A stretch of 26,765 nucleotides of DNA from a virus: the IMG/VR virus record IMGVR_UViG_3300028591_000065. The stretch is one strand, 5' to 3'. The position numbers and the translations under genes are program-made. The notes under the pieces are model-generated. The model ran no database searches and was not told the origin of the DNA. It was given only the letters and a program-made list of their open reading frames with translations. Shown here piece by piece: positions 9,590 to 25,888 of this stretch; the first letter of the stretch is position 1; each line of letters starts with the position of its first letter.

Positions 9590-10156
9590 ATGAGTAAAGT
9601 TAAGTTTGGTTTAAAAAACGTACATATTGCTAAAATTACTTATGGAGAAAGTGGTGGACTACCAACTATTACTTATGGAACTCCATTTGCTTTACCTGGT
9701 GCAGTTAACTTAACACTAGACCCAGAAGGAGATAGTGCTGACTTCTTTGCTGATAACACTAAATATTTTAGTTCAAGTGCTAATAATGGTTATAGTGGAT
9801 CATTAGAAATGGCAAAACTTACTGAGGAGTTTAGAACTGAAATACTAGGAGAAACTACTGACACTAACGGTGCATTAGTAGAAAGCAAAGACGATACTCT
9901 AAGTGATTTTGCTTTAGGTTTTGAAGTTGACGGAGATGATAAGAATACAAGATATTGGTTCTATGCTATTACTCCTGCAAGAGCAGGCGCAGGTTCATCT
10001 ACTATTGAAACAACAAAAGAACCTATTACTGAAACAATAAATATTAGTGCTAATGCAAGAATAACTGACGGAAAAGTTAGAATATTTATGGAAGAAACAA
10101 ATACAAACACAACAGCTTTCAATGGTTTCTTCACAAGTGTATACGAAGCACAATAA
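9590..10156 (+). CDS. Major tail protein (phi13-family-like)
   Basis: ATG 9590 follows TAGGAGGTATATA. The sequence MSKVKFGLKNVHIAKIT...TYGTPFALPGAVNLTLDPEGDSADFFADN matches the pattern of this family. The track's 9527 start overlaps the upstream gene and lacks an SD. Confidence 0.8.
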   Translation: MSKVKFGLKNVHIAKITYGESGGLPTITYGTPFALPGAVNLTLDPEGDSADFFADNTKYFSSSANNGYSGSLEMAKLTEEFRTEILGETTDTNGALVESKDDTLSDFALGFEVDGDDKNTRYWFYAITPARAGAGSSTIETTKEPITETINISANARITDGKVRIFMEETNTNTTAFNGFFTSVYEAQ

Positions 10157-10158
10157 AA

Positions 10159-10214
10159 TACTACTCTCTTATGAGTAGTACAAAGAGAACTACTATATCG
10201 GTAGTTCTTTTTTT
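10159..10214 (+). terminator. Tandem hairpins; the second is an intrinsic terminator after the major tail gene
   Basis: Hairpin 1: TACTACTC (10159-10166) / GAGTAGTA (10173-10180). Hairpin 2: AGAACTAC (10186-10193) / GTAGTTCT (10201-10208), followed by T-run 10208-10214. Confidence 0.75.
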
Positions 10215-12461: not shown

Positions 12462-15038
12462 ATGAGAAATTATGTAATAATAAATGGAGTTAATTCATTA
12501 AGTATAAAAGGTTTAGCAATAAGTAAACTACCTTCTATTTCTAAACCACCATTAAGAGTAATGACGGAAGAAATAGACGGACGAGACGGAGATATAATAA
12601 CTGAATTAGGTTATGGATCGTATGATAAAGAATTAGTCATTGGTTTATATGAAAATTATGATATAAACGAAATAATAGGTTTCTTTAATCAAGAAGGAAC
12701 TATTGTATTCAGTAATGAAGATGATAAATACTATAACTTTAAAATAATAAATCAAATAGACTATGAAGCATTAATCAAGTTTAGAACTGCAAATGTGACA
12801 TTACATTGTCAACCGTTTAAGTACCCTTTAGAAGAAGAACCTATCGAACTAATAGATACATATATAGAAGAAGAAGGGGAAGAAATAACTTTAACCCCAA
12901 CAGAAGACGCACCAATGGAGATAACATTAAAAGGAAACACTTCACAAGTAGTAATACCAGCAGAAGAAGGTTTAGAAGCTGAAGGAACAAGCATAACATT
13001 AACTGACGTAATACCAACAAAAGAGAACTATATAATACTAAAAGGAAATACATCACAAAACGGAACACCTACACCAGATAATCCAGTAAATGTTAATGTA
13101 GTAAGTGGAGATAATGAGATAGTTGTATGTGGTAAAAACTTAATTCCATTTCCTTATCAAGGTTCAACAAGAACTGATGGTTCTTTATCGTGGGTTGTAA
13201 ATGATGATGGCACTATATTAGTAAATGGCACAAACGATACAGGTTCTACTAAATATTTTAATTTACAATATAATAACGGAATTCAATTAAAAGCAGGAAC
13301 TTATACAATTTCCGTTGGTAGTACATCAAATATTAGGGCAACGGTGGCTAAATGGGGTGATAACACTAATGTAATTGCATTGTTATCACCAAATACAAGC
13401 GATACAACATTTACTCTTACTGAAGATATGATTGTCACTATTGTACTAGCAATAAATAATGGGTTAAGTGTTAATAATATTTTAGTAAAACCAATGCTAG
13501 AAAAAAATACAAGTTCAACAACATACGAACCATATACAAGAAATACATATCATATAAATTTAGGCACAATAGAACTATGTAAAATAGGAACATACCAAGA
13601 TAAACTTATTAAGTCTAATGATAAATGGTATTGGTATAGAGAAATTGGGAAAGTTGTTTTAAATGGTAGTGAGAATTGGGGCAATTTTCATATTGAAAGT
13701 TCAGGACTTGGTAGAGCAATAGTAGAAAGTACTAATGTTTATTTTGACAGCGATACACCAAGCATTTTAGCAAGTAATATGAAAGGTGTTAAATATTCAA
13801 GTTCTTGGAATAATACTTATGATTGTATAGCAAGTTATAATAATAATAGATTTATAGCATATTTAAAAAATGCAACTGATTTAACAAGTTTTAAAGCAAT
13901 TTTAAGTAATAGTAATTCAATAGTAAAATATGTACTATCAACACCTACTTATACTGAAATAACTGATACTAATTTAATAAATCAATTAAATGCTTTATAT
14001 AATGCTACTATTTATGAAACAACTAATATAAGTTCTATTCCTAACGATTTAGAACCTTTTATTGATATTAAGTACAATGTTGTCACACCTTCTCCTAGTC
14101 CTCAAAGACCGAGTGCTATTAATGTGGTTAGTGGTACTAATACTATTAAAATAGCTAATGAAGATGATACTGAAAGTCAAACTTTTAATATTAGACTTGG
14201 ATCATTGAAGTTATACAAACTAAATGACACACAAGATTATATTTATAAAAGTGCTGATAAATGGTATATAAGAAACCACGCAAAAGAAAAAACCTTTACT
14301 GGTGCTGATATTGAAGGTTGGGGTTGTTTACAAAATGGTAGAGGAGAGTGGTGTATTCTAACTACTAATATTAGAAATGAAGTAAAACAAGGTTCATCTT
14401 TAATTGCTGATATATTACCATTTTTTAGTAGTGCTATATTTGACGGACTATATAATCAAAATGCTATAACTTTAGGTGGTAAAAATATAGAGTTGATGAT
14501 AGAAGGAATAAACGATAATGATGATGAATTATTTACGGACTTCTTAGCAATACATAACTTAACTATTTTATATGAGTTAGCAACTCCTATTGATACCGAA
14601 ATAACTGACACTGATTTAATAGAAGATTTGGAAGCATTACTTGAAGCAACTTCATATAACCCAGAAACAAATATCACACAAACAAGTAATGATAAACCAT
14701 TTATTATATATGCTAAAGCATTAGAAGGTGGTTCTGGAGAAGCTGAAGTAATAAACGAAGGTAATATATACGCTAAACCTATCTTTGAAATAGAAGGTAA
14801 TGGAATAGTACAAGTTTTAATTGATAATAACGAAGTATTACAAGTTGATACTACAAACGATACAATAATAATTGATACTGAAAATATGGAAGCAATTAAT
14901 AAGAGTGATAATACATTAGCAAATAGACAAGTAATAGGAGATTATTCAAAAATAAAATTAGTTTCTGGAGAAAGTAATGTAAAACTTACTGGTAATTATA
15001 CAAAAGGAACTATTACAAAATATACGAGGTATCTATGA
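12462..15038 (+). CDS. Distal tail protein (evolved Dit) with two inserted, related modules
   Basis: 858 aa directly after the tape measure gene. Dit-like N-terminal (~120 aa) and C-terminal (~110 aa) parts flank two paralogous insertions (see findings). Confidence 0.7.
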   Translation: MRNYVIINGVNSLSIKGLAISKLPSISKPPLRVMTEEIDGRDGDIITELGYGSYDKELVIGLYENYDINEIIGFFNQEGTIVFSNEDDKYYNFKIINQIDYEALIKFRTANVTLHCQPFKYPLEEEPIELIDTYIEEEGEEITLTPTEDAPMEITLKGNTSQVVIPAEEGLEAEGTSITLTDVIPTKENYIILKGNTSQNGTPTPDNPVNVNVVSGDNEIVVCGKNLIPFPYQGSTRTDGSLSWVVNDDGTILVNGTNDTGSTKYFNLQYNNGIQLKAGTYTISVGSTSNIRATVAKWGDNTNVIALLSPNTSDTTFTLTEDMIVTIVLAINNGLSVNNILVKPMLEKNTSSTTYEPYTRNTYHINLGTIELCKIGTYQDKLIKSNDKWYWYREIGKVVLNGSENWGNFHIESSGLGRAIVESTNVYFDSDTPSILASNMKGVKYSSSWNNTYDCIASYNNNRFIAYLKNATDLTSFKAILSNSNSIVKYVLSTPTYTEITDTNLINQLNALYNATIYETTNISSIPNDLEPFIDIKYNVVTPSPSPQRPSAINVVSGTNTIKIANEDDTESQTFNIRLGSLKLYKLNDTQDYIYKSADKWYIRNHAKEKTFTGADIEGWGCLQNGRGEWCILTTNIRNEVKQGSSLIADILPFFSSAIFDGLYNQNAITLGGKNIELMIEGINDNDDELFTDFLAIHNLTILYELATPIDTEITDTDLIEDLEALLEATSYNPETNITQTSNDKPFIIYAKALEGGSGEAEVINEGNIYAKPIFEIEGNGIVQVLIDNNEVLQVDTTNDTIIIDTENMEAINKSDNTLANRQVIGDYSKIKLVSGESNVKLTGNYTKGTITKYTRYL

Positions 15039-18466: not shown

Positions 18467-18667
18467 ATGGAAACTGTAAAGAAAATTGCTAAATATGGTG
18501 TTAATATTTTAGCTATAGTAAATGCTTTATTAGTAGGTTTAGATCCAATATGGGGTATTCCTTATTGTGATAAAATAACTGCTACTATATCAGTAATAAT
18601 GGCAGTTGCTGGTACATACTTACTAGGACAAAAAGCATATAATTATTATAAAATAGAGGGTGTTTAA
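18467..18667 (+). CDS. Holin
   Basis: 66 aa with two hydrophobic segments (VNILAIVNALLVGL and ITATISVIMAVAGTYLLG). Located immediately upstream of the endolysin. Confidence 0.7.
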   Translation: METVKKIAKYGVNILAIVNALLVGLDPIWGIPYCDKITATISVIMAVAGTYLLGQKAYNYYKIEGV

Positions 18668-18669
18668 TT

Positions 18670-19353
18670 ATGGTAAAGAAATATAAATATAATTGTGATG
18701 ATAAATTATCGGCACATTTTTCAGTTCAAGACTTTAGGTGTAAATGTGGTGGTAAACATGATATTTTAATTGATACAAAATTAGTAGATTTATTAGAAGA
18801 TTTGTACTTAAAACTAGAAGCTGACGAGTTAAAAGTTTATAGTGGGTATAGGTGTAAAAAGCACGATATAGCAGTAGGTGGTTCTGGAAGTGGTTCTCAT
18901 ACTGAAGGAAAAGCTGCTGATTTTTATTGCAAGAAAGACGGAAAACGTATAAGTTCAGGTGTTGTTTGTGTGACACTTGAAAACATGAAAGACTATAAAG
19001 GTATAGGTTTTAGGTGTGGAGGGAAAAAAAATACAACAGGAGATACACACGCTGACGTAAGAAATAGACAATGGTACGGAAATGAAGCAAGTAAAACTCC
19101 AAGAAAAGCAGTCACTAAAGACTGGTATAAATACTTTGATAATGTAGAAATGAAAACACGTACAACAATGAATATACGTAGTGGTGCTGGTACTAACTAT
19201 AAAAAAGTTGGATCATTAAAAAAGGGTTCTATATTTAAAGCAACGCAATTAAAATGGAACGGGAAAGACGGTTGGTTAAAAATGGCAAAAGGTTATATAT
19301 GTTTGTGTCAAGATAAAAAATATTATTGTGATATAGAAAAGGTAGAACCATGA
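18670..19353 (+). CDS. Endolysin: zinc peptidase M15 (M15_3/YcbK-like) catalytic domain plus C-terminal SH3b domain
   Basis: Catalytic motif: FSVQDFRCKCGG...SGYRCKKHDIAVGGSGSGSHTEGKAADF...THADVR. The SH3b-like segment is MNIRSGAGTNYKKVGSLKKGSIFKA...DGWLKM. Confidence 0.85.
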   Translation: MVKKYKYNCDDKLSAHFSVQDFRCKCGGKHDILIDTKLVDLLEDLYLKLEADELKVYSGYRCKKHDIAVGGSGSGSHTEGKAADFYCKKDGKRISSGVVCVTLENMKDYKGIGFRCGGKKNTTGDTHADVRNRQWYGNEASKTPRKAVTKDWYKYFDNVEMKTRTTMNIRSGAGTNYKKVGSLKKGSIFKATQLKWNGKDGWLKMAKGYICLCQDKKYYCDIEKVEP

Positions 19354-19724
19354 AAGTAAGAGAACTAATAGATTATGTAATATTAGCAAGTGCTTTTTTA
19401 GGTGCATTATTTGGAGTAATGAAATATATAAAAGCAGGTATAAAAGAAATGCTAAAAAATGAATTCAAAGACATAACTGATAGACTAAATAAATTAGAGA
19501 ATAAAATTGACACCAACGAAGCTGATAGAATAAGGACTGAAATAGAGCATTATTATCATATATGTTTAAGTGGTGGAGAAATAGACACAAACGAAAAGAC
19601 ACATATAGATAATATATATAGAAAGTACCATAATGAATTAAAACAAAATGGAGAAATAACACACGAATATAACTACATAATAGAATATTATGAAATGCAA
19701 TTTAAAAAGACTAGTGTATGCTAG
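19350..19724 (+). CDS. Membrane-anchored coiled-coil protein, translationally coupled to the endolysin
   Basis: ATGA overlap with the endolysin stop. N-terminal TM segment LIDYVILASAFLGALFGVM, then DITDRLNKLENKID and a His/Tyr-rich C-terminus. Confidence 0.6.
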   Translation: MKVRELIDYVILASAFLGALFGVMKYIKAGIKEMLKNEFKDITDRLNKLENKIDTNEADRIRTEIEHYYHICLSGGEIDTNEKTHIDNIYRKYHNELKQNGEITHEYNYIIEYYEMQFKKTSVC

Positions 19725-19735
19725 TCTCTTTTTTT
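19708..19735. terminator. Bidirectional intrinsic terminator between convergent genes
   Basis: Stem AGACTAG (19708-19714) / CTAGTCT (19721-19727). It is flanked by an A-run upstream and a T-run downstream, so it reads as hairpin plus U-run on both strands. Confidence 0.75.
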
Positions 19736-19772: not shown

Positions 19773-20108
19773 TTATAAATCTTTAGTGCAATTATACGTT
19801 TGATACTTTTTATAGACTAAATCGTCTTTATTCCAGTTGGGGTATTTTTCTTTAAAATAATCTTCAGCACGTTGTATCATATACTTACGCATTGGTGTAT
19901 CATCAAACATAAAATGACAGTCTAAACAATTAGTCATTATATTCTCTGGAATACCTAAACCACCATGAGAACGTTTTATAAAATGTGAATTAGCTAAGTT
20001 AATATCACAATATCTACCACAAAAAATACACCTGTGGTTATCTCTTTCCCATACTATTTGCTTAGTTTCTTTTGAAATCATTAAAGCTTTAGTTCTTTCA
20101 CTTTTCAT
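19773..20108 (-). CDS. HNH endonuclease (second copy; only minus-strand gene)
   Basis: 111 aa. Motifs: VWERDNHRCIFCGR...NSHFIKRSHGGLGIPENIMTNCLDCH. RBS AGAGGGA on the minus strand. Confidence 0.75.
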   Translation of the reverse strand: MKSERTKALMISKETKQIVWERDNHRCIFCGRYCDINLANSHFIKRSHGGLGIPENIMTNCLDCHFMFDDTPMRKYMIQRAEDYFKEKYPNWNKDDLVYKKYQTYNCTKDL

Positions 20109-20164
20109 ATATTCCCTCTTTAATTTTATTGTAAATCAAAAGAGTAGGGAATACTGGGAAATAT

Positions 20165-20193
20165 TTGACAATTAATACTATTCTATTTATAAT
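20165..20193 (+). promoter_or_regulatory. Consensus sigma-A-type promoter (early P1)
   Basis: TTGACA (20165-20170), 17-nt spacer, TATAAT (20188-20193). It is followed by AAAGGAGGGGG and ATG 20218. Confidence 0.8.
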
Positions 20194-20217
20194 TAGCAAC
20201 TCAAAGGAGGGGGAATT

Positions 20218-20484
20218 ATGAAGTATTTAGTATTATATGAAAGAACCAACGGAGATATGCTATATAGGTATAGGAAAAGTTTACCAGAATATGAAGTTGG
20301 ATCGTATACCTCAATGGGTTGGAAATTAGTTGACATAAAAGTATTAGATAAAGGTAAATGTCTTTCTATGTATGACTACTCTACTTCTGTATCTAATAGA
20401 GTAGTAGGGTTGACACAACGCATTGACTACCGAAAAATCGTTGAATATATGCTCTTATTAGCATTAATTAAAATTATTTTGTAA
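20218..20484 (+). CDS. Hypothetical first early protein with a hydrophobic C-terminus
   Basis: 88-aa ORF with a strong SD, directly downstream of P1. C-terminal segment: VEYMLLLALIKIIL. Confidence 0.65.
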   Translation: MKYLVLYERTNGDMLYRYRKSLPEYEVGSYTSMGWKLVDIKVLDKGKCLSMYDYSTSVSNRVVGLTQRIDYRKIVEYMLLLALIKIIL

Positions 20485-20500
20485 AGTTTTAAAATTACTA

Positions 20501-20529
20501 TTGCAACCAATATATATGTATGTTAAAAT
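20501..20529 (+). promoter_or_regulatory. Sigma-A-type promoter with extended -10 (early P2)
   Basis: TTGCAA (20501-20506), 17-nt spacer ending in TGT, TAAAAT (20524-20529). Confidence 0.7.
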
Positions 20530-20535
20530 TAAAAT

Positions 20536-20652
20536 GTAATGAAGGTACGAGATACCTTTTAAAAATACTTTAACAAGTTAACATAATATATATATTAACA
20601 AATAGAGTATTTTAAAAGAAACGAACCTCATTACTAGAAATGAGGTTTTTTT
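20536..20652 (+). ncRNA. Predicted ~115-nt structured leader / small RNA ending at an intrinsic terminator
   Basis: Hairpin AAGGTA (20542-20547) / TACCTT (20553-20558). A long AU stem pairs 20556-20569 with 20606-20618. The terminator spans 20624-20652. No SD-preceded ORF is present. Confidence 0.45.
20624..20652 (+). terminator. Intrinsic terminator whose 3' arm contains the SD of the next gene
   Basis: Stem AACCTCATT (20624-20632) / AATGAGGTT (20639-20647), loop ACTAGA, T-run 20646-20652. GAGG at 20642-20645 lies 8 nt upstream of ATG 20654. Confidence 0.8.
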
Positions 20653-20653
20653 A

Positions 20654-20851
20654 ATGTATTACAACTTTTATGCAGAACTCAAAAAGAGAAATTGGAAGCA
20701 AAGTGATTTAGCTAACTTCTTAGGAATAACAATAACAACTTGCAACCAGAAGCTATTAGGCAACTTCTCATGGGACATTAAAGATATAAAGAAATGTCTT
20801 AAAGAGTTTAATACCACATTTGAATATTTATTTGAAACTAAGGAGGACTAA
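20654..20851 (+). CDS. Cro-like HTH regulator (XRE/DUF739-like)
   Basis: 65 aa. HTH-like segment: WKQSDLANFLGITITTCNQKLLGNFSWDIKDIKK. Confidence 0.6.
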   Translation: MYYNFYAELKKRNWKQSDLANFLGITITTCNQKLLGNFSWDIKDIKKCLKEFNTTFEYLFETKED

Positions 20852-20853
20852 AT

Positions 20854-21042
20854 ATGAAAGTTAATATTAAAGGTTTTATTGCTTTATTTGTAATGTTATT
20901 TGTTATAGGTTTTATCGGTTATGATTTTATACAACTTGTAAAAGGTGGAACTTACACATTTTATGGAATAGCAACACTTATACTTGTAATTTATGCTGGT
21001 TATTTATCAAGCAGTTATATTGAAGCAAGAATAAAGAGGTAG
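20854..21042 (+). CDS. Small membrane protein (two TM segments)
   Basis: 62 aa. Hydrophobic segments: FIALFVMLFVIGFIGY and GIATLILVIYAGYL. RBS AAGGAGGA. Confidence 0.6.
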   Translation: MKVNIKGFIALFVMLFVIGFIGYDFIQLVKGGTYTFYGIATLILVIYAGYLSSSYIEARIKR

Positions 21043-25370: not shown

Positions 25371-25502
25371 ATGGCATTTTTAGGTGGTGCATTTTGTGGT
25401 TTAATTCTAGGTGGTGGTTTTGGTTTATTACTAGGTTGTTGTTTAGCAAGTGCTAGTAAAGAAGACAAATATTTAGAAGAAAACTGGAGACATAAAAGAT
25501 GA
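25371..25502 (+). CDS. Small glycine-rich membrane peptide (43 aa)
   Basis: ATG 25371 lies 8 nt after AAAGGAG. Translation: MAFLGGAFCGLILGGGFGLLLGCCLASASKEDKYLEENWRHKR. The track's 25278 start overlaps the upstream gene. Confidence 0.55.
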   Translation: MAFLGGAFCGLILGGGFGLLLGCCLASASKEDKYLEENWRHKR

Positions 25503-25888
25503 GCGAAAAAGAACTATCAAGATATTATAAAATTAGGCAAGAAATAGACGATTTAGAAAATAGAATAAAAGAGTTTGGAGACGGAGTAAGTGGTATTGCT
25601 ATAAAAGATATTATTACAATGTCTTCTGGAAAACACGAAAGTTTACAAGAGAAGCTAGTGTTATTAAAAGATAAATGGGTAGAAAAAAGAATATCAGCAC
25701 TAGAAGAATATTTAAAAATAGAGAATTACATAGACAATGTAGATGATCCAGAGACAAGAACAATAATGCGTTTACGTTTCCTAGACCTTTTAACTTGGGA
25801 AGAAATAGGGGAAGTAGTACATATGGAACGTACTAGTGTATCAAAGAAGATAAGAAAGTATATAAAGGTGCAAAATGCAAAACAATAA
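25499..25888 (+). CDS. Putative late-gene transcriptional activator (sigma-70 region-4-like HTH; RinA/ArpU-type role)
   Basis: 129 aa. N-terminal coiled segment: YYKIRQEIDDLENRIKEF. C-terminal segment RTIMRLRFLDLLTWEEIGEVVHMERTSVSKKIRKYI resembles sigma region 4. The gene lies near the end of the early arm. Confidence 0.55.
   Translation: MSEKELSRYYKIRQEIDDLENRIKEFGDGVSGIAIKDIITMSSGKHESLQEKLVLLKDKWVEKRISALEEYLKIENYIDNVDDPETRTIMRLRFLDLLTWEEIGEVVHMERTSVSKKIRKYIKVQNAKQ

What the first reader, a model, noticed from the sequence alone, without database searches (positions are those of the whole stretch)
20501..20656. Promoter, ~115-nt structured leader and terminator in which the terminator stem sequesters the SD of the Cro-like gene
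A good extended -10 promoter (TTGCAA-17-TGTTAAAAT, 20501-20529) is followed by ~115 nt with no SD-preceded ORF but with several structures:
- A 6-bp hairpin at 20542-20558.
- A 13-14-bp AU stem (20556-20569 / 20606-20618) that overlaps the 3' arm of the first hairpin, so the two are mutually exclusive alternatives.
- A textbook terminator (9-bp stem 20624-20647 plus a 7-T run).

The ATG of the Cro-like regulator (20654) starts 2 nt after the T-run. Its only SD (GAGG, 20642-20645) lies in the 3' arm of the terminator stem. Transcription into the whole replication/recombination arm, and translation of its first regulator, are therefore both gated by this hairpin. The same transcript, when terminated, would be a discrete ~115-nt small RNA. 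The genome has no recognisable protein repressor, so this RNA element is a candidate for the main early switch. It could act as an attenuator, a riboregulator or an immunity-type small RNA, as in P4 or P22 sar. I do not recognise it as a known riboswitch class.
Basis: partly seen in the sequence, partly recalled or inferred. Interest (0 to 1): 0.7.

Follow-up and report, generated by a model that had tools for sequence, protein, structure and literature searches.

The report
Phage early-operon leader RNA attenuator
Between a conserved promoter and the first early gene, this phage encodes a ~112-nt structured leader RNA that can fold either into a transcription terminator or into one long hairpin that blocks the terminator. 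The design matches the "zipper-type" attenuators described in 2026 for conjugative plasmids, here found in phages with an unexplained invariant tip.

Summary
Window 20501-20653 holds an extended -10 promoter, a weak hairpin (H1), a long AU-rich hairpin (H2) and a canonical terminator whose 3' arm contains the SD of the Cro-like gene.

I found about 16 diverged lineages of the same module in metagenomic phages. All have the promoter, a 90-116-nt leader, H2 and a terminator just upstream of the first early gene. The H2 stem covaries: 15 of 16 pairs change on both sides, and cognate arms pair at -19 versus -9 kcal/mol for non-cognate arms. Its tip, AGTT(A/T)ACATAATAT, is nearly invariant.

In every lineage the terminator's 5' arm is already paired with upstream leader sequence before its 3' partner is transcribed. 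The two folds have similar energies (differences up to about 8 kcal/mol). In the window, the leader's 5' end (20536-20546) pairs with 20625-20634 and extends H2 into a rod. This is the architecture of the zipper-type attenuator of plasmid pLS20 (PMC13401043).

SD sequestration occurs only in the window's two closest lineages. The signal that flips the switch is unknown. Candidates are the always-adjacent 88-aa protein, an antisense transcript starting at the tip, or the choice between the two tandem promoters. No Rfam family or literature match was found.

The parts
20165..20193 (+). P1: perfect sigma-70-type promoter (TTGACA, 17 nt, TATAAT) driving orf88. No terminator lies between it and the leader.
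   Evidence: 12/12 match. A TTGAC(A/T)-17-TAnnnT promoter sits at the same place upstream of the orf88 homologue in all 14 lineages scanned.
20218..20484 (+). orf88: 88-aa protein of unknown function, always encoded immediately upstream of the leader. Candidate effector.
   Evidence: No Pfam or PHROG hit. Homologues lie upstream of the leader in every lineage. Invariant residues are Y7, P23, G28, T31, S32, G34, W35 and G46. The family has at least 124 clusters, none annotated. AlphaFold pLDDT is 87: four strands plus two helices. No significant structural match.
20501..20529 (+). P2: extended -10 promoter (TTGCAA, 17 nt, TG-T-TAAAAT). Predicted TSS about 20536.
   Evidence: Sequence. Conserved in type and position in all lineages although the hexamers differ. 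The best partner of the terminator's 5' arm within the 410 nt upstream starts exactly at 20536.
20536..20546 (+). Leader 5' end, the 'zipper strand' GUAAUGAAGGU. Pairs with the terminator's 5' arm (20625-20634): 10 bp with one bulge.
   Evidence: Duplex energy -11.4 kcal/mol; 6 of 1000 shuffles reach it. It forms in the MFE of transcripts ending at 20634-20640.
20541..20559 (+). H1: weak 7-bp hairpin (-5.5 kcal/mol). Both arms are consumed when the rod forms.
20556..20618 (+). H2: long imperfect AU-rich hairpin, with a 16-bp basal stem plus an apical hairpin. It is the core of the antiterminator rod.
   Evidence: Covariation: 92.5% of cells paired against 73% in shuffles and 39-52% in slid controls; 15 of 16 basal pairs change on both sides. 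Cognate arms pair at -19.3 versus -8.6 kcal/mol for non-cognate arms. G.U outnumbers A.C 24 to 3.
20575..20601 (+). Invariant tip AAGTTAACATAATATATATATTAACAA. The 14-mer AGTTAACATAATAT (20576-20589) is kept in all lineages with at most 1 change.
   Evidence: One compensatory change in its stem (GTTAA/TTAAC to GTTTA/TAAAC) in L038. Single copy in the window.
20623..20652 (+). Intrinsic terminator: 10-bp stem, 6-nt loop, seven U. The A-tract upstream makes it bidirectional.
   Evidence: A terminator occupies the same place in all lineages.
20642..20645 (+). SD (GAGG) of the Cro-like gene, inside the terminator's 3' arm. Exposed in the rod fold, sequestered in the terminator fold.
   Evidence: Specific to the window and L092 lineages.
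20654..20851 (+). First early gene: 65-aa Cro/XRE-type HTH protein. It is followed by a 62-aa hydrophobic protein and a DnaD-like helicase loader.

Best explanation
The element is a cis-acting transcription attenuator in the leader of the phage's early operon.

Proposed sequence of events:
1. RNA polymerase starts at P2, at about 20536.
2. The invariant apical hairpin and then the long H2 stem fold first.
3. As the next bases emerge, the stem keeps extending. H1's 3' arm pairs with 20614-18, and the leader's 5' end (20536-46) pairs with 20625-34.
4. The terminator's 5' arm is therefore already occupied when its 3' arm (20639-48) is made. This rod fold lets polymerase read into cro and the replication genes, and it leaves the SD free.
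5. If the rod is not completed or is opened, H1, a shorter H2 and the terminator form instead. The product is then a ~112-nt RNA. In this lineage, any transcript that escapes termination has its SD locked in the terminator stem.

In most relatives the logic is simpler: H2's 3' arm is itself the terminator's 5' arm.

Shown by computation: the conserved promoter, leader, terminator, covarying H2, alternative pairings and similar energies of the two folds.

Inferred: the TSS; that the rod forms by default (by analogy with pLS20); and that a factor recognising the invariant tip flips the switch. The candidates for that factor are ranked in the full report.
For: - The module is conserved in about 16 lineages whose Cro-like and Orf88 proteins have diverged to 24-72% identity.
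- H2 covaries. G.U pairs far outnumber A.C pairs (24:3), so the plus strand acts in single-stranded form.
- In all 16 representatives, 60-100% of the terminator's 5'-arm bases are paired with upstream leader sequence in the MFE of the transcript that ends just before the 3' arm.
- Full-length terminator and antiterminator folds differ by -5.0 to +8.2 kcal/mol.
- Window specifics: the rod is -23.9 kcal/mol at 20640, against -15.6 for the shorter transcript ending at 20620, which folds as H1+H2. The full-length terminator fold is -27.5, against -24.6 for the rod.
- The 5'-end pairing is the best partner within 410 nt and is reached by 6 of 1000 shuffles.
- No good promoter lies downstream of the terminator.
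- The same architecture was shown experimentally to attenuate transcription in pLS20-family plasmids: a weak stem-loop, a long imperfect stem-loop and a terminator, with complementarity that extends the long stem, similar energies and 0-26 nt from terminator to SD (PMC13401043).
Against: - There is no transcript data. The TSS and termination are predictions.
- In the window lineage the terminator fold is 2.9 kcal/mol more stable than the rod at full length, so the outcome depends on folding kinetics that I cannot compute.
- In L100 the alternative pairing is weak.
- The pair counts were made on a CM-fitted alignment, which leans towards the modelled structure.
- AU-rich sequences pair promiscuously.
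- The zipper model does not by itself explain the invariance of the tip.
Confidence: 0.65

Rival explanations
1. The hairpin is the ordinary terminator of the orf88 transcription unit. The early genes are expressed by constitutive leak-through. H1 and H2 are only stabilising or processing structures of a 3'/5' UTR.
For: P1 is the strongest promoter in the window, and no terminator lies between orf88 and 20623. When the 70 nt upstream of the P2 start are included, as in P1 transcripts, the terminator fold is favoured. Mean E_T - E_AT goes from +1.8 to -5.1 kcal/mol. This exceeds dinucleotide shuffles (at most 3 of 80) in 8 of 16 lineages.
Against: A conserved promoter, P2, sits between the orf88 stop codon and that terminator in every lineage. 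The terminator's 5' arm always has a competing upstream partner. This is unnecessary for a plain terminator. For the window itself the upstream effect is not significant (9 of 80 shuffles).
Confidence: 0.15
2. This is countertranscript-driven attenuation, as in pT181, pIP501 and pCF10. The invariant tip would be an antisense promoter. Its RNA would pair with the leader's 5' half, free the terminator's 5' arm and cause termination. This is a proposal for the input signal and is compatible with the best explanation.
For: The reverse complement of the tip, ATATTATGTTAACTT, reads TRTG-n-TAACTT. That is the same extended -10 type as P2; for comparison, P2 of L038 is AATATTATGTTAATCT (reading by eye). 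A promoter at the apex, between the two arms, is where pT181-type antisense promoters lie (my own knowledge). The pLS20 authors also raise a countertranscript as a possibility.
Against: No canonical -35/-10 promoter was found on the minus strand downstream of the tip in any lineage. The key -7 T is A in L097 and L120/L121. No minus-strand terminator lies between 20400 and 20600. Promoter function alone would not fix 14 or more consecutive bases, given that P1 and P2 vary freely.
Confidence: 0.15
3. The ~112-nt terminated transcript is itself the functional product. It would be a trans-acting small RNA, either an immunity or regulatory RNA as in P4 CI or P22 sar, or a decoy for a host factor.
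For: There is a conserved promoter, a conserved terminator and an invariant exposed tip. Terminated leaders would accumulate in any case.
Against: There is no other copy or complement of the tip in the window at up to 3 mismatches. The RNA always sits directly in front of the early genes, with no room for a separate promoter. The alternative pairings target its own terminator.
Confidence: 0.07
4. The element acts at the DNA level. The inverted repeat would be a cruciform or single-strand origin element next to the replication genes, or the palindromic tip would be an operator.
For: It is an AT-rich long inverted repeat directly upstream of the replication module. The tip contains GTTAAC-N11-(N)TTAAC.
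Against: The G.U to A.C asymmetry of 24:3 argues against double-stranded recognition. The 3' half of the palindrome is lost in L114-L123 while the 5' half and loop stay. The replication initiators differ among lineages (DnaD-like, Phage_rep_org_N, HTH_36) although the tip is the same. The U-run, promoter and competing arms are all oriented for a plus-strand RNA.
Confidence: 0.06

Closest known systems
Zipper-type transcription attenuator cATTpLS20 of pLS20-family and other Gram-positive conjugative plasmids (Gonzalez-Alvarez et al., NAR 2026, PMC13401043)
   Same: - Lies in the leader of a long co-directional operon.
- Has a weak upstream stem-loop, a long imperfect stem-loop, and an intrinsic terminator 0-26 nt from the SD of the first gene.
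- The upstream stem-loop and the terminator's 5' stem and loop are complementary, so the long stem extends and precludes both.
- The two folds have similar energies.
- Some members have an A-tract that makes the terminator bidirectional.
- In both systems the effector is unknown.
   Different: - The host is a phage, not a plasmid. The leader is about 112 nt, against 456 nt.
- The first gene is a Cro-like HTH protein, not ConAn1.
- In most phage lineages the terminator's 5' arm is simply the 3' arm of the long hairpin.
- In pLS20 the most conserved part is SL-2. Here it is the tip of the long hairpin.
- A specific small protein gene and a second promoter always lie directly upstream.
- In the window lineage the terminator also hides the SD.
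- Sequence homology was not tested, and function was not tested here.
Countertranscript-driven attenuation in pT181, pIP501/pAMbeta1 and pCF10 prgQ/Anti-Q (my own knowledge; pCF10 is cited in PMC13401043)
   Same: The leader has a pre-emptor/antiterminator versus terminator choice just upstream of the first gene of a mobile element. The upstream arm and the terminator's 3' arm are near-copies that compete for one strand.
   Different: Those systems need an antisense RNA made from a promoter within the leader. Here there is only an extended -10-like sequence in the tip, with no canonical promoter or antisense terminator.
Satellite phage P4 immunity: CI RNA with seqA/seqB/seqC (my own knowledge)
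   Same: A phage early-operon leader in which RNA-RNA pairing within or between leader transcripts decides premature termination. A short stable RNA is derived from the same leader.
   Different: P4's CI RNA is processed out and acts in trans on two target sites. No such repeated target sites occur here. There is no Rfam match and the gene context is unrelated.
Lambda PR'-6S RNA-tR' with Q, and HK022 put RNA (my own knowledge)
   Same: A constitutive promoter, a short terminated RNA and a terminator gate a long phage operon. In HK022 a cis-acting, two-hairpin RNA just downstream of the promoter allows read-through.
   Different: Q and put modify the polymerase for processive antitermination and do not compete for the terminator's arm. 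Here the alternative pairing directly removes the terminator hairpin. No Q-like gene was identified among the ORFs scanned.

Membership tests
Zipper-type transcription attenuator (as defined in PMC13401043) | Lies in the 5' leader between the promoter and the first gene of a long co-directional operon | tested here: met
   P2 at 20501-29, leader at 20536-20653, then cro, replication and all other large ORFs on the plus strand.
Zipper-type transcription attenuator (as defined in PMC13401043) | Intrinsic terminator immediately upstream (0-26 nt) of the first gene's SD | tested here: met
   Terminator at 20623-52. The SD overlaps its 3' arm. In relatives the SD lies downstream of the U-run.
Zipper-type transcription attenuator (as defined in PMC13401043) | Long imperfect central stem-loop that nucleates the antiterminator | tested here: met
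   H2 at 20556-20618. Covariation.
Zipper-type transcription attenuator (as defined in PMC13401043) | Weak stem-loop just upstream of the long stem | tested here: met
   H1 at 20541-59, -5.5 kcal/mol. pLS20 SL-2 is -6.4 kcal/mol.
Zipper-type transcription attenuator (as defined in PMC13401043) | Sequence of the upstream stem-loop is complementary to the terminator's 5' stem and loop, so that the long stem is extended and both hairpins are precluded | tested here: met
   20536-46 pairs with 20625-34, and H1's 3' arm extends H2. Difference: here it is H1's 5' arm plus 5 upstream nt that pair with the terminator, whereas in pLS20 it is SL-2's 3' arm.
Zipper-type transcription attenuator (as defined in PMC13401043) | Terminator and antiterminator folds of similar free energy | tested here: met
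   -27.5 versus -24.6 kcal/mol in the window. The difference ranges from -5.0 to +8.2 kcal/mol over 16 lineages.
Zipper-type transcription attenuator (as defined in PMC13401043) | Attenuation and a default antiterminator state shown by in vitro transcription, reporters or SHAPE | not testable with these tools
   Needs experiments.
Zipper-type transcription attenuator (as defined in PMC13401043) | Common descent with cATTpLS20, or a ConAn-type antitermination system as the first genes | not tested
   I did not compare with the pLS20 sequence. The first gene here is an XRE/Cro-type HTH protein. I claim similarity of mechanism only.
Any curated RNA family, including riboswitches (Rfam 15) | Match to a covariance model at the gathering score | tested here: not met
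   0 matches in the window. Only noise at E up to 10 in 20100-20900. 0 matches in 14 related loci.
Countertranscript-driven attenuator (pT181/pIP501/pCF10 type) | Antisense promoter within the leader, producing a discrete antisense RNA | tested here: inconclusive
   No canonical minus-strand promoter is conserved and there is no minus-strand terminator. However, the reverse complement of the tip resembles an extended -10 (by eye).
Rho-independent terminator | G+C-containing stem followed directly by a U-run | tested here: met
   10-bp stem with 3 G-C pairs, followed by seven T.
Ribosome-mediated (leader-peptide) attenuator | Conserved short ORF with an SD, whose translation overlaps the alternative arms | tested here: not met
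   There is only a 7-codon ORF without an SD at 20539. 'MKV...' ORFs occur in L100, L102 and L103 but are absent in L085, L089 and L116.

The most novel reading that the evidence does not exclude
The invariant tip (AGUUAACAUAAUAU) is the docking site of a dedicated effector. That effector would be either the always-adjacent Orf88 protein or an antisense RNA started at the tip. The module orf88-P2-leader would then be a self-contained phage switch. It would decide between a ~112-nt dead-end RNA and transcription of essentially the whole genome, and it would treat P1- and P2-initiated transcripts differently.
Probability: 0.3. Interest if true: 0.75.

Novelty: new variant of a known kind. Interest (0 to 1): 0.6.

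Why it matters
Zipper-type attenuation was described only in July 2026, and only for conjugative plasmids. Its input signal is still unknown. The phage family found here uses the same folding logic in a much shorter leader of about 112 nt. It offers natural covariation across about 16 lineages, an invariant 14-nt tip, and a co-inherited small protein. These are concrete handles for finding the effector.

In this 26.8-kb phage nearly all genes run in one direction from the P1/P2 region. The element is therefore likely to gate the whole infection programme. It also defines a new structured-RNA family and a new small-protein family, neither of which is in Rfam, Pfam or PHROGs.

Tried and rejected
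- **Rfam:** gathering and E up to 10 on the window, gathering on 14 relatives. Nothing found.
- **tRNA/tmRNA:** none.
- **GenBank phages:** no relative of the region or of the tip, only chance-level hits.
- **Reference bacterial genomes:** the tip pattern gave one chance hit, so there is no prophage and no host assignment.
- **Cro-like protein in IMG/VR:** no relatives.
- **CM search of 80 DnaD-related viral loci:** only L038 was added.
- **Literature search for the exact tip sequence:** nothing relevant.
- **Orf88 structure:** a confident model, but no significant PDB or BFVD match. The top hits (RbpA, Hfq, YkzG) have TM about 0.3 and are not meaningful.
- **Leader-peptide attenuation:** rejected, because the short ORFs are not conserved.
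- **DNA palindrome operator:** weakened, because the 3' half-site is lost in L114-L123.
- **Resemblance of CTTTAACAA / TTTTAACAA to rrn boxA:** these bases are not conserved across lineages, so I dropped it.
- **Internal plus-strand promoter in the tip:** there is no conserved -35.
- **P1-transcript-specific termination:** a suggestive trend (mean z = -2.1), but not significant for the window itself with dinucleotide shuffles.
- **H1 versus H2 as the switch:** rejected. They overlap by only 4 nt and coexist in the MFE.

Full report
**Context**

The window is a small phage genome with siphovirus-like gene order. It corresponds to a 26,779-bp metagenomic contig. Almost all genes lie on the plus strand:
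- terminase through tail genes, then holin and endolysin (18467-19353);
- a minus-strand HNH gene (19773-20108);
- an 88-aa ORF (20218-20484);
- a Cro-like HTH protein (20654-20851), a 62-aa hydrophobic protein, a DnaD-like loader and further early genes.

The only 12/12 sigma-70-type promoter in the window is P1 at 20165-20193, in front of the 88-aa ORF.

**The observation**

- an extended -10 promoter, P2, at 20501-29;
- H1 at 20541-47 with 20553-59;
- a long AU-rich hairpin, H2, at 20556-72 with 20603-18, topped by 20577-81 with 20595-99;
- a 10-bp terminator at 20623-48 with seven T;
- the SD (GAGG, 20642-45) in the terminator's 3' arm;
- the ATG at 20654.

The leader folds far better than shuffles (z = -5.5). 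Terminator-like sites are enriched in this region, 5 against 0.6 expected. P2 on its own is a chance-level match.

**Relatives**

No GenBank phage and no Rfam family matches. I found relatives in metagenome assemblies by four routes:
- homologues of the Cro-like protein;
- exact scans for the hairpin tip;
- one of 80 DnaD-related viral loci;
- independently of the RNA, homologues of the 88-aa protein.

Together these give about 16 lineages. Their Cro-like proteins are 65-72% identical to the window's, and their Orf88 proteins are as little as 24% identical. In two lineages the first early gene is not Cro-like at all.

All lineages share the same order of parts:
1. P1;
2. an orf88 homologue;
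3. about 16 nt after its stop codon, a promoter with -35 TTGnnn, a 17-nt spacer and a TG-extended -10;
4. a purine-rich 5' segment, usually with a small hairpin;
5. a long hairpin;
6. an intrinsic terminator;
7. the SD and the first early gene.

One distant lineage, L125/L126, is arranged differently. Its Orf88 homologue is truncated to 76 aa and lies on the opposite strand. Its early leader still has a promoter, about 110 nt and a terminator, but it lacks the canonical tip.

**Structure conservation**

The basal stem of H2 has a different sequence in nearly every lineage, yet it stays complementary. Examples are AAAAUACU/AGUAUUUU, UUAGUGU/ACACUAA, UGAGUGGC/GCCACUCA, UGGUUGA/UCAACCA and GUAUCUUAAGU/ACUUAAGAUAC.

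- Cognate 5' and 3' flanks pair at a mean of -19.3 kcal/mol, against -8.6 +/- 3.5 for non-cognate combinations.
- On a CM-derived alignment, 92.5% of cells are paired, against 73% in shuffles and 39-52% when the partners are slid. Fifteen of 16 basal pairs change on both sides. This alignment is fitted to the structure, so the counts lean towards it.
- G.U pairs outnumber A.C pairs 24 to 3. This is expected for a plus-strand RNA and not for double-stranded DNA recognition.

By contrast, the tip is nearly invariant. AAGTTAACATAATATATAT(N)TTAAC holds in most lineages, and AGTT(A/T)ACATAATAT holds in all. L038 shows one compensatory change in the tip's small stem. In the diverged members the local fold of the tip is not kept, but the motif always sits at the apex of the long hairpin.

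**The switch**

The relation between H2 and the terminator falls into two groups.

- In 12 of the 16 representatives, the 3' arm of H2 is also the 5' arm of the terminator. The two structures are therefore mutually exclusive. These lineages are L085, L089, L097, L038, L101, L103, L109, L114, L116, L118, L120 and L123.
- In the window, L092, L100 and L102 lineages the terminator is a separate hairpin. Its 5' arm still has an upstream partner.

In the window, GUAAUGAAGGU at the predicted 5' end (20536-46) pairs with ACCUCAUUAC (20625-34).
- The duplex energy is -11.4 kcal/mol.
- It is the best of all 12-mers in the 410 nt upstream.
- Only 6 of 1000 shuffles reach it.

Folding the growing transcript shows the following:
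- H1+H2 up to 20620 (-15.6 kcal/mol);
- a single extended rod at 20634-20640 (-22.7 to -23.9 kcal/mol), in which H1 is dissolved and the terminator's 5' arm is occupied;
- H1+H2+terminator once the 3' arm is present (-26.8 to -27.5 kcal/mol).

Across all 16 representatives, 60-100% of the terminator's 5'-arm bases are already paired before the 3' arm exists. Full-length terminator and antiterminator folds differ by -5.0 to +8.2 kcal/mol. The pairing is weak in L100.

In the rod fold the window's SD lies in an open loop. In the terminator fold it is paired. Elsewhere the SD lies downstream of the U-run.

**Comparison with what is known**

A paper from July 2026 (PMC13401043) describes exactly this architecture in the leader of the pLS20 conjugation operon and of many other Gram-positive plasmids:
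- a weak stem-loop, a long imperfect stem-loop and an intrinsic terminator 0-26 nt from the SD;
- complementarity between the weak stem-loop and the terminator that zips the long stem further;
- similar energies for the two folds;
- the antiterminator as the default state in vitro;
- an unknown effector, with an RNA-binding protein or a countertranscript proposed.

That paper does not report such attenuators in phages.

I therefore read the element as a zipper-type attenuator of a phage early operon. I claim similarity of mechanism. I did not test common descent.

**What flips it**

I cannot decide this with the tools at hand. The candidates, in my order of preference, are below.

1. **A factor recognising the invariant tip.** The obvious candidate is Orf88.
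   - It accompanies the leader in every lineage, including the 7 reached through the protein alone.
   - It has a conserved aromatic and basic face on a four-stranded sheet, followed by two helices.
   - It has no detectable relatives of known function.
2. **The start site.** The 70 nt upstream of the P2 start, which are present in P1 transcripts, often pair with the tip or with H2's 5' arm.
   - Including them shifts the balance towards the terminator: mean ddG goes from +1.8 to -5.1 kcal/mol.
   - This exceeds dinucleotide shuffles in 8 of 16 lineages, but not in the window itself (9 of 80).
   - P1 transcripts may therefore stop at the terminator while P2 transcripts pass.
3. **An antisense RNA.**
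   - The reverse complement of the tip looks like an extended -10 element of the P2 type.
   - However, there is no canonical promoter, no antisense terminator, and two lineages lack the -7 T.

**Rivals**

- A plain orf88 terminator does not explain a conserved promoter placed between the gene and its terminator, nor the competing arms.
- A trans-acting small RNA is not excluded as a by-product, but it has no second target in the genome.
- A DNA-level origin or operator is disfavoured for three reasons. The G.U to A.C ratio is asymmetric. The 3' half of the palindrome is lost in some lineages. The same tip occurs next to unrelated replication initiators.

**Verdict**

The finding is real and non-trivial. 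The proposed H1/H2 alternation and SD sequestration are not the conserved mechanism.

The element is a new variant of a very recently described kind. The RNA and its companion protein are absent from Rfam 15, Pfam-A, PHROGs v4 and GenBank phage records. A literature search for the tip sequence found nothing relevant.

Noticed in passing
window 20218-20484 (and homologues in L085-L123): orf88 defines a small-protein family of 76-130 aa with at least 124 clusters at 90% identity. All come from metagenomes and none is annotated. The invariant motif is TS(M/Y)GW, and the C-terminal helix is hydrophobic. The AlphaFold model is confident (pLDDT 87) but has no structural neighbour.
   Followed up: partly
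window 19773-20108 (minus strand): The minus-strand HNH gene between the lysis genes and P1 occupies a variable slot. Close relatives with near-identical flanks carry different genes there (103 aa; 103+155 aa; 106+149 aa; 128 aa). Several lineages have a promoter divergent from P1.
   Followed up: no
window 20370-20700 versus L001, L003, L004: Among close relatives the 5' half of orf88 differs by roughly 10%, mostly at synonymous-looking sites. From about 20370 through the leader into cro the DNA is almost identical. The few changes fall mostly in unpaired positions of the fold. This suggests a recombination boundary or strong constraint.
   Followed up: no
L092 versus L093, L094, L097: An identical or similar leader+cro module is joined to different replication modules: DnaD-like, HTH_36/Phg_2220_C or Phage_rep_org_N. 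Different recombinases also follow (Sak, ERF, Slr1353_N-like). The module is therefore shuffled as a unit.
   Followed up: no
window 20539-20562: A seven-codon ORF, MKVRDTF*, starts 3 nt after the predicted TSS and has no SD. ORFs starting 'MKVQ...' occupy the same place in L100, L102 and L103 but are absent in other lineages. Many leaders also carry an SD-like purine block near the 5' end (GAAGG, AAGGAG, AAGGGG). That block could bind 30S subunits as an mRNA stabiliser.
   Followed up: partly
window 20576-20589 (minus strand); P2 at 20507-20529: The reverse complement of the invariant tip (ATATTATGTTAACT) resembles the spacer and extended -10 region of P2. In the window, 20509-20526 is complementary to the tip over 16 nt with one bulge. 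The two regions form a large inverted repeat around the TSS.
   Followed up: partly
L100, about position 14320 (minus strand): A second, partial copy of the tip (ACAAGTTAACATAAT, then diverging) lies about 12 kb from the leader on the opposite strand of a 40-kb viral contig. It may be a chance match.
   Followed up: no
window 10158-10212: Two overlapping strong terminator-like hairpins lie between the gene ending at 10156 and the tape-measure gene, one on each strand. The plus-strand one has a 13-bp stem. Another plus-strand terminator lies at 1751-1774 in the gap before the packaging genes, and one at 19708-19727 ends the lysis operon.
   Followed up: no
window 25499-25888: A 129-aa protein matches PHROG 36 and PHROG 248 (transcriptional regulator/activator). 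It may be the late-gene activator. No integrase or CI-type repressor was seen among the ORFs scanned.
   Followed up: no
L125 1290-1500 (minus strand): In a distant lineage the Orf88 homologue is truncated to 76 aa and lies on the strand opposite to the early operon. The early leader still has TTGACA-17-TACAAT, about 110 nt, a terminator (ACTAGGTA-GAAA-TACCTAGT followed by T7) and an SD, but it lacks the canonical tip.
   Followed up: partly
window 20654-20680: The first roughly 25 nt of the Cro-like gene (ATGTATTACAACTTTTATGCAGAAC) are almost unchanged at the DNA level in lineages whose proteins are only 65-72% identical. This may reflect conservation of the N-terminal MYYNFY peptide or an RNA-level role.
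   Followed up: no
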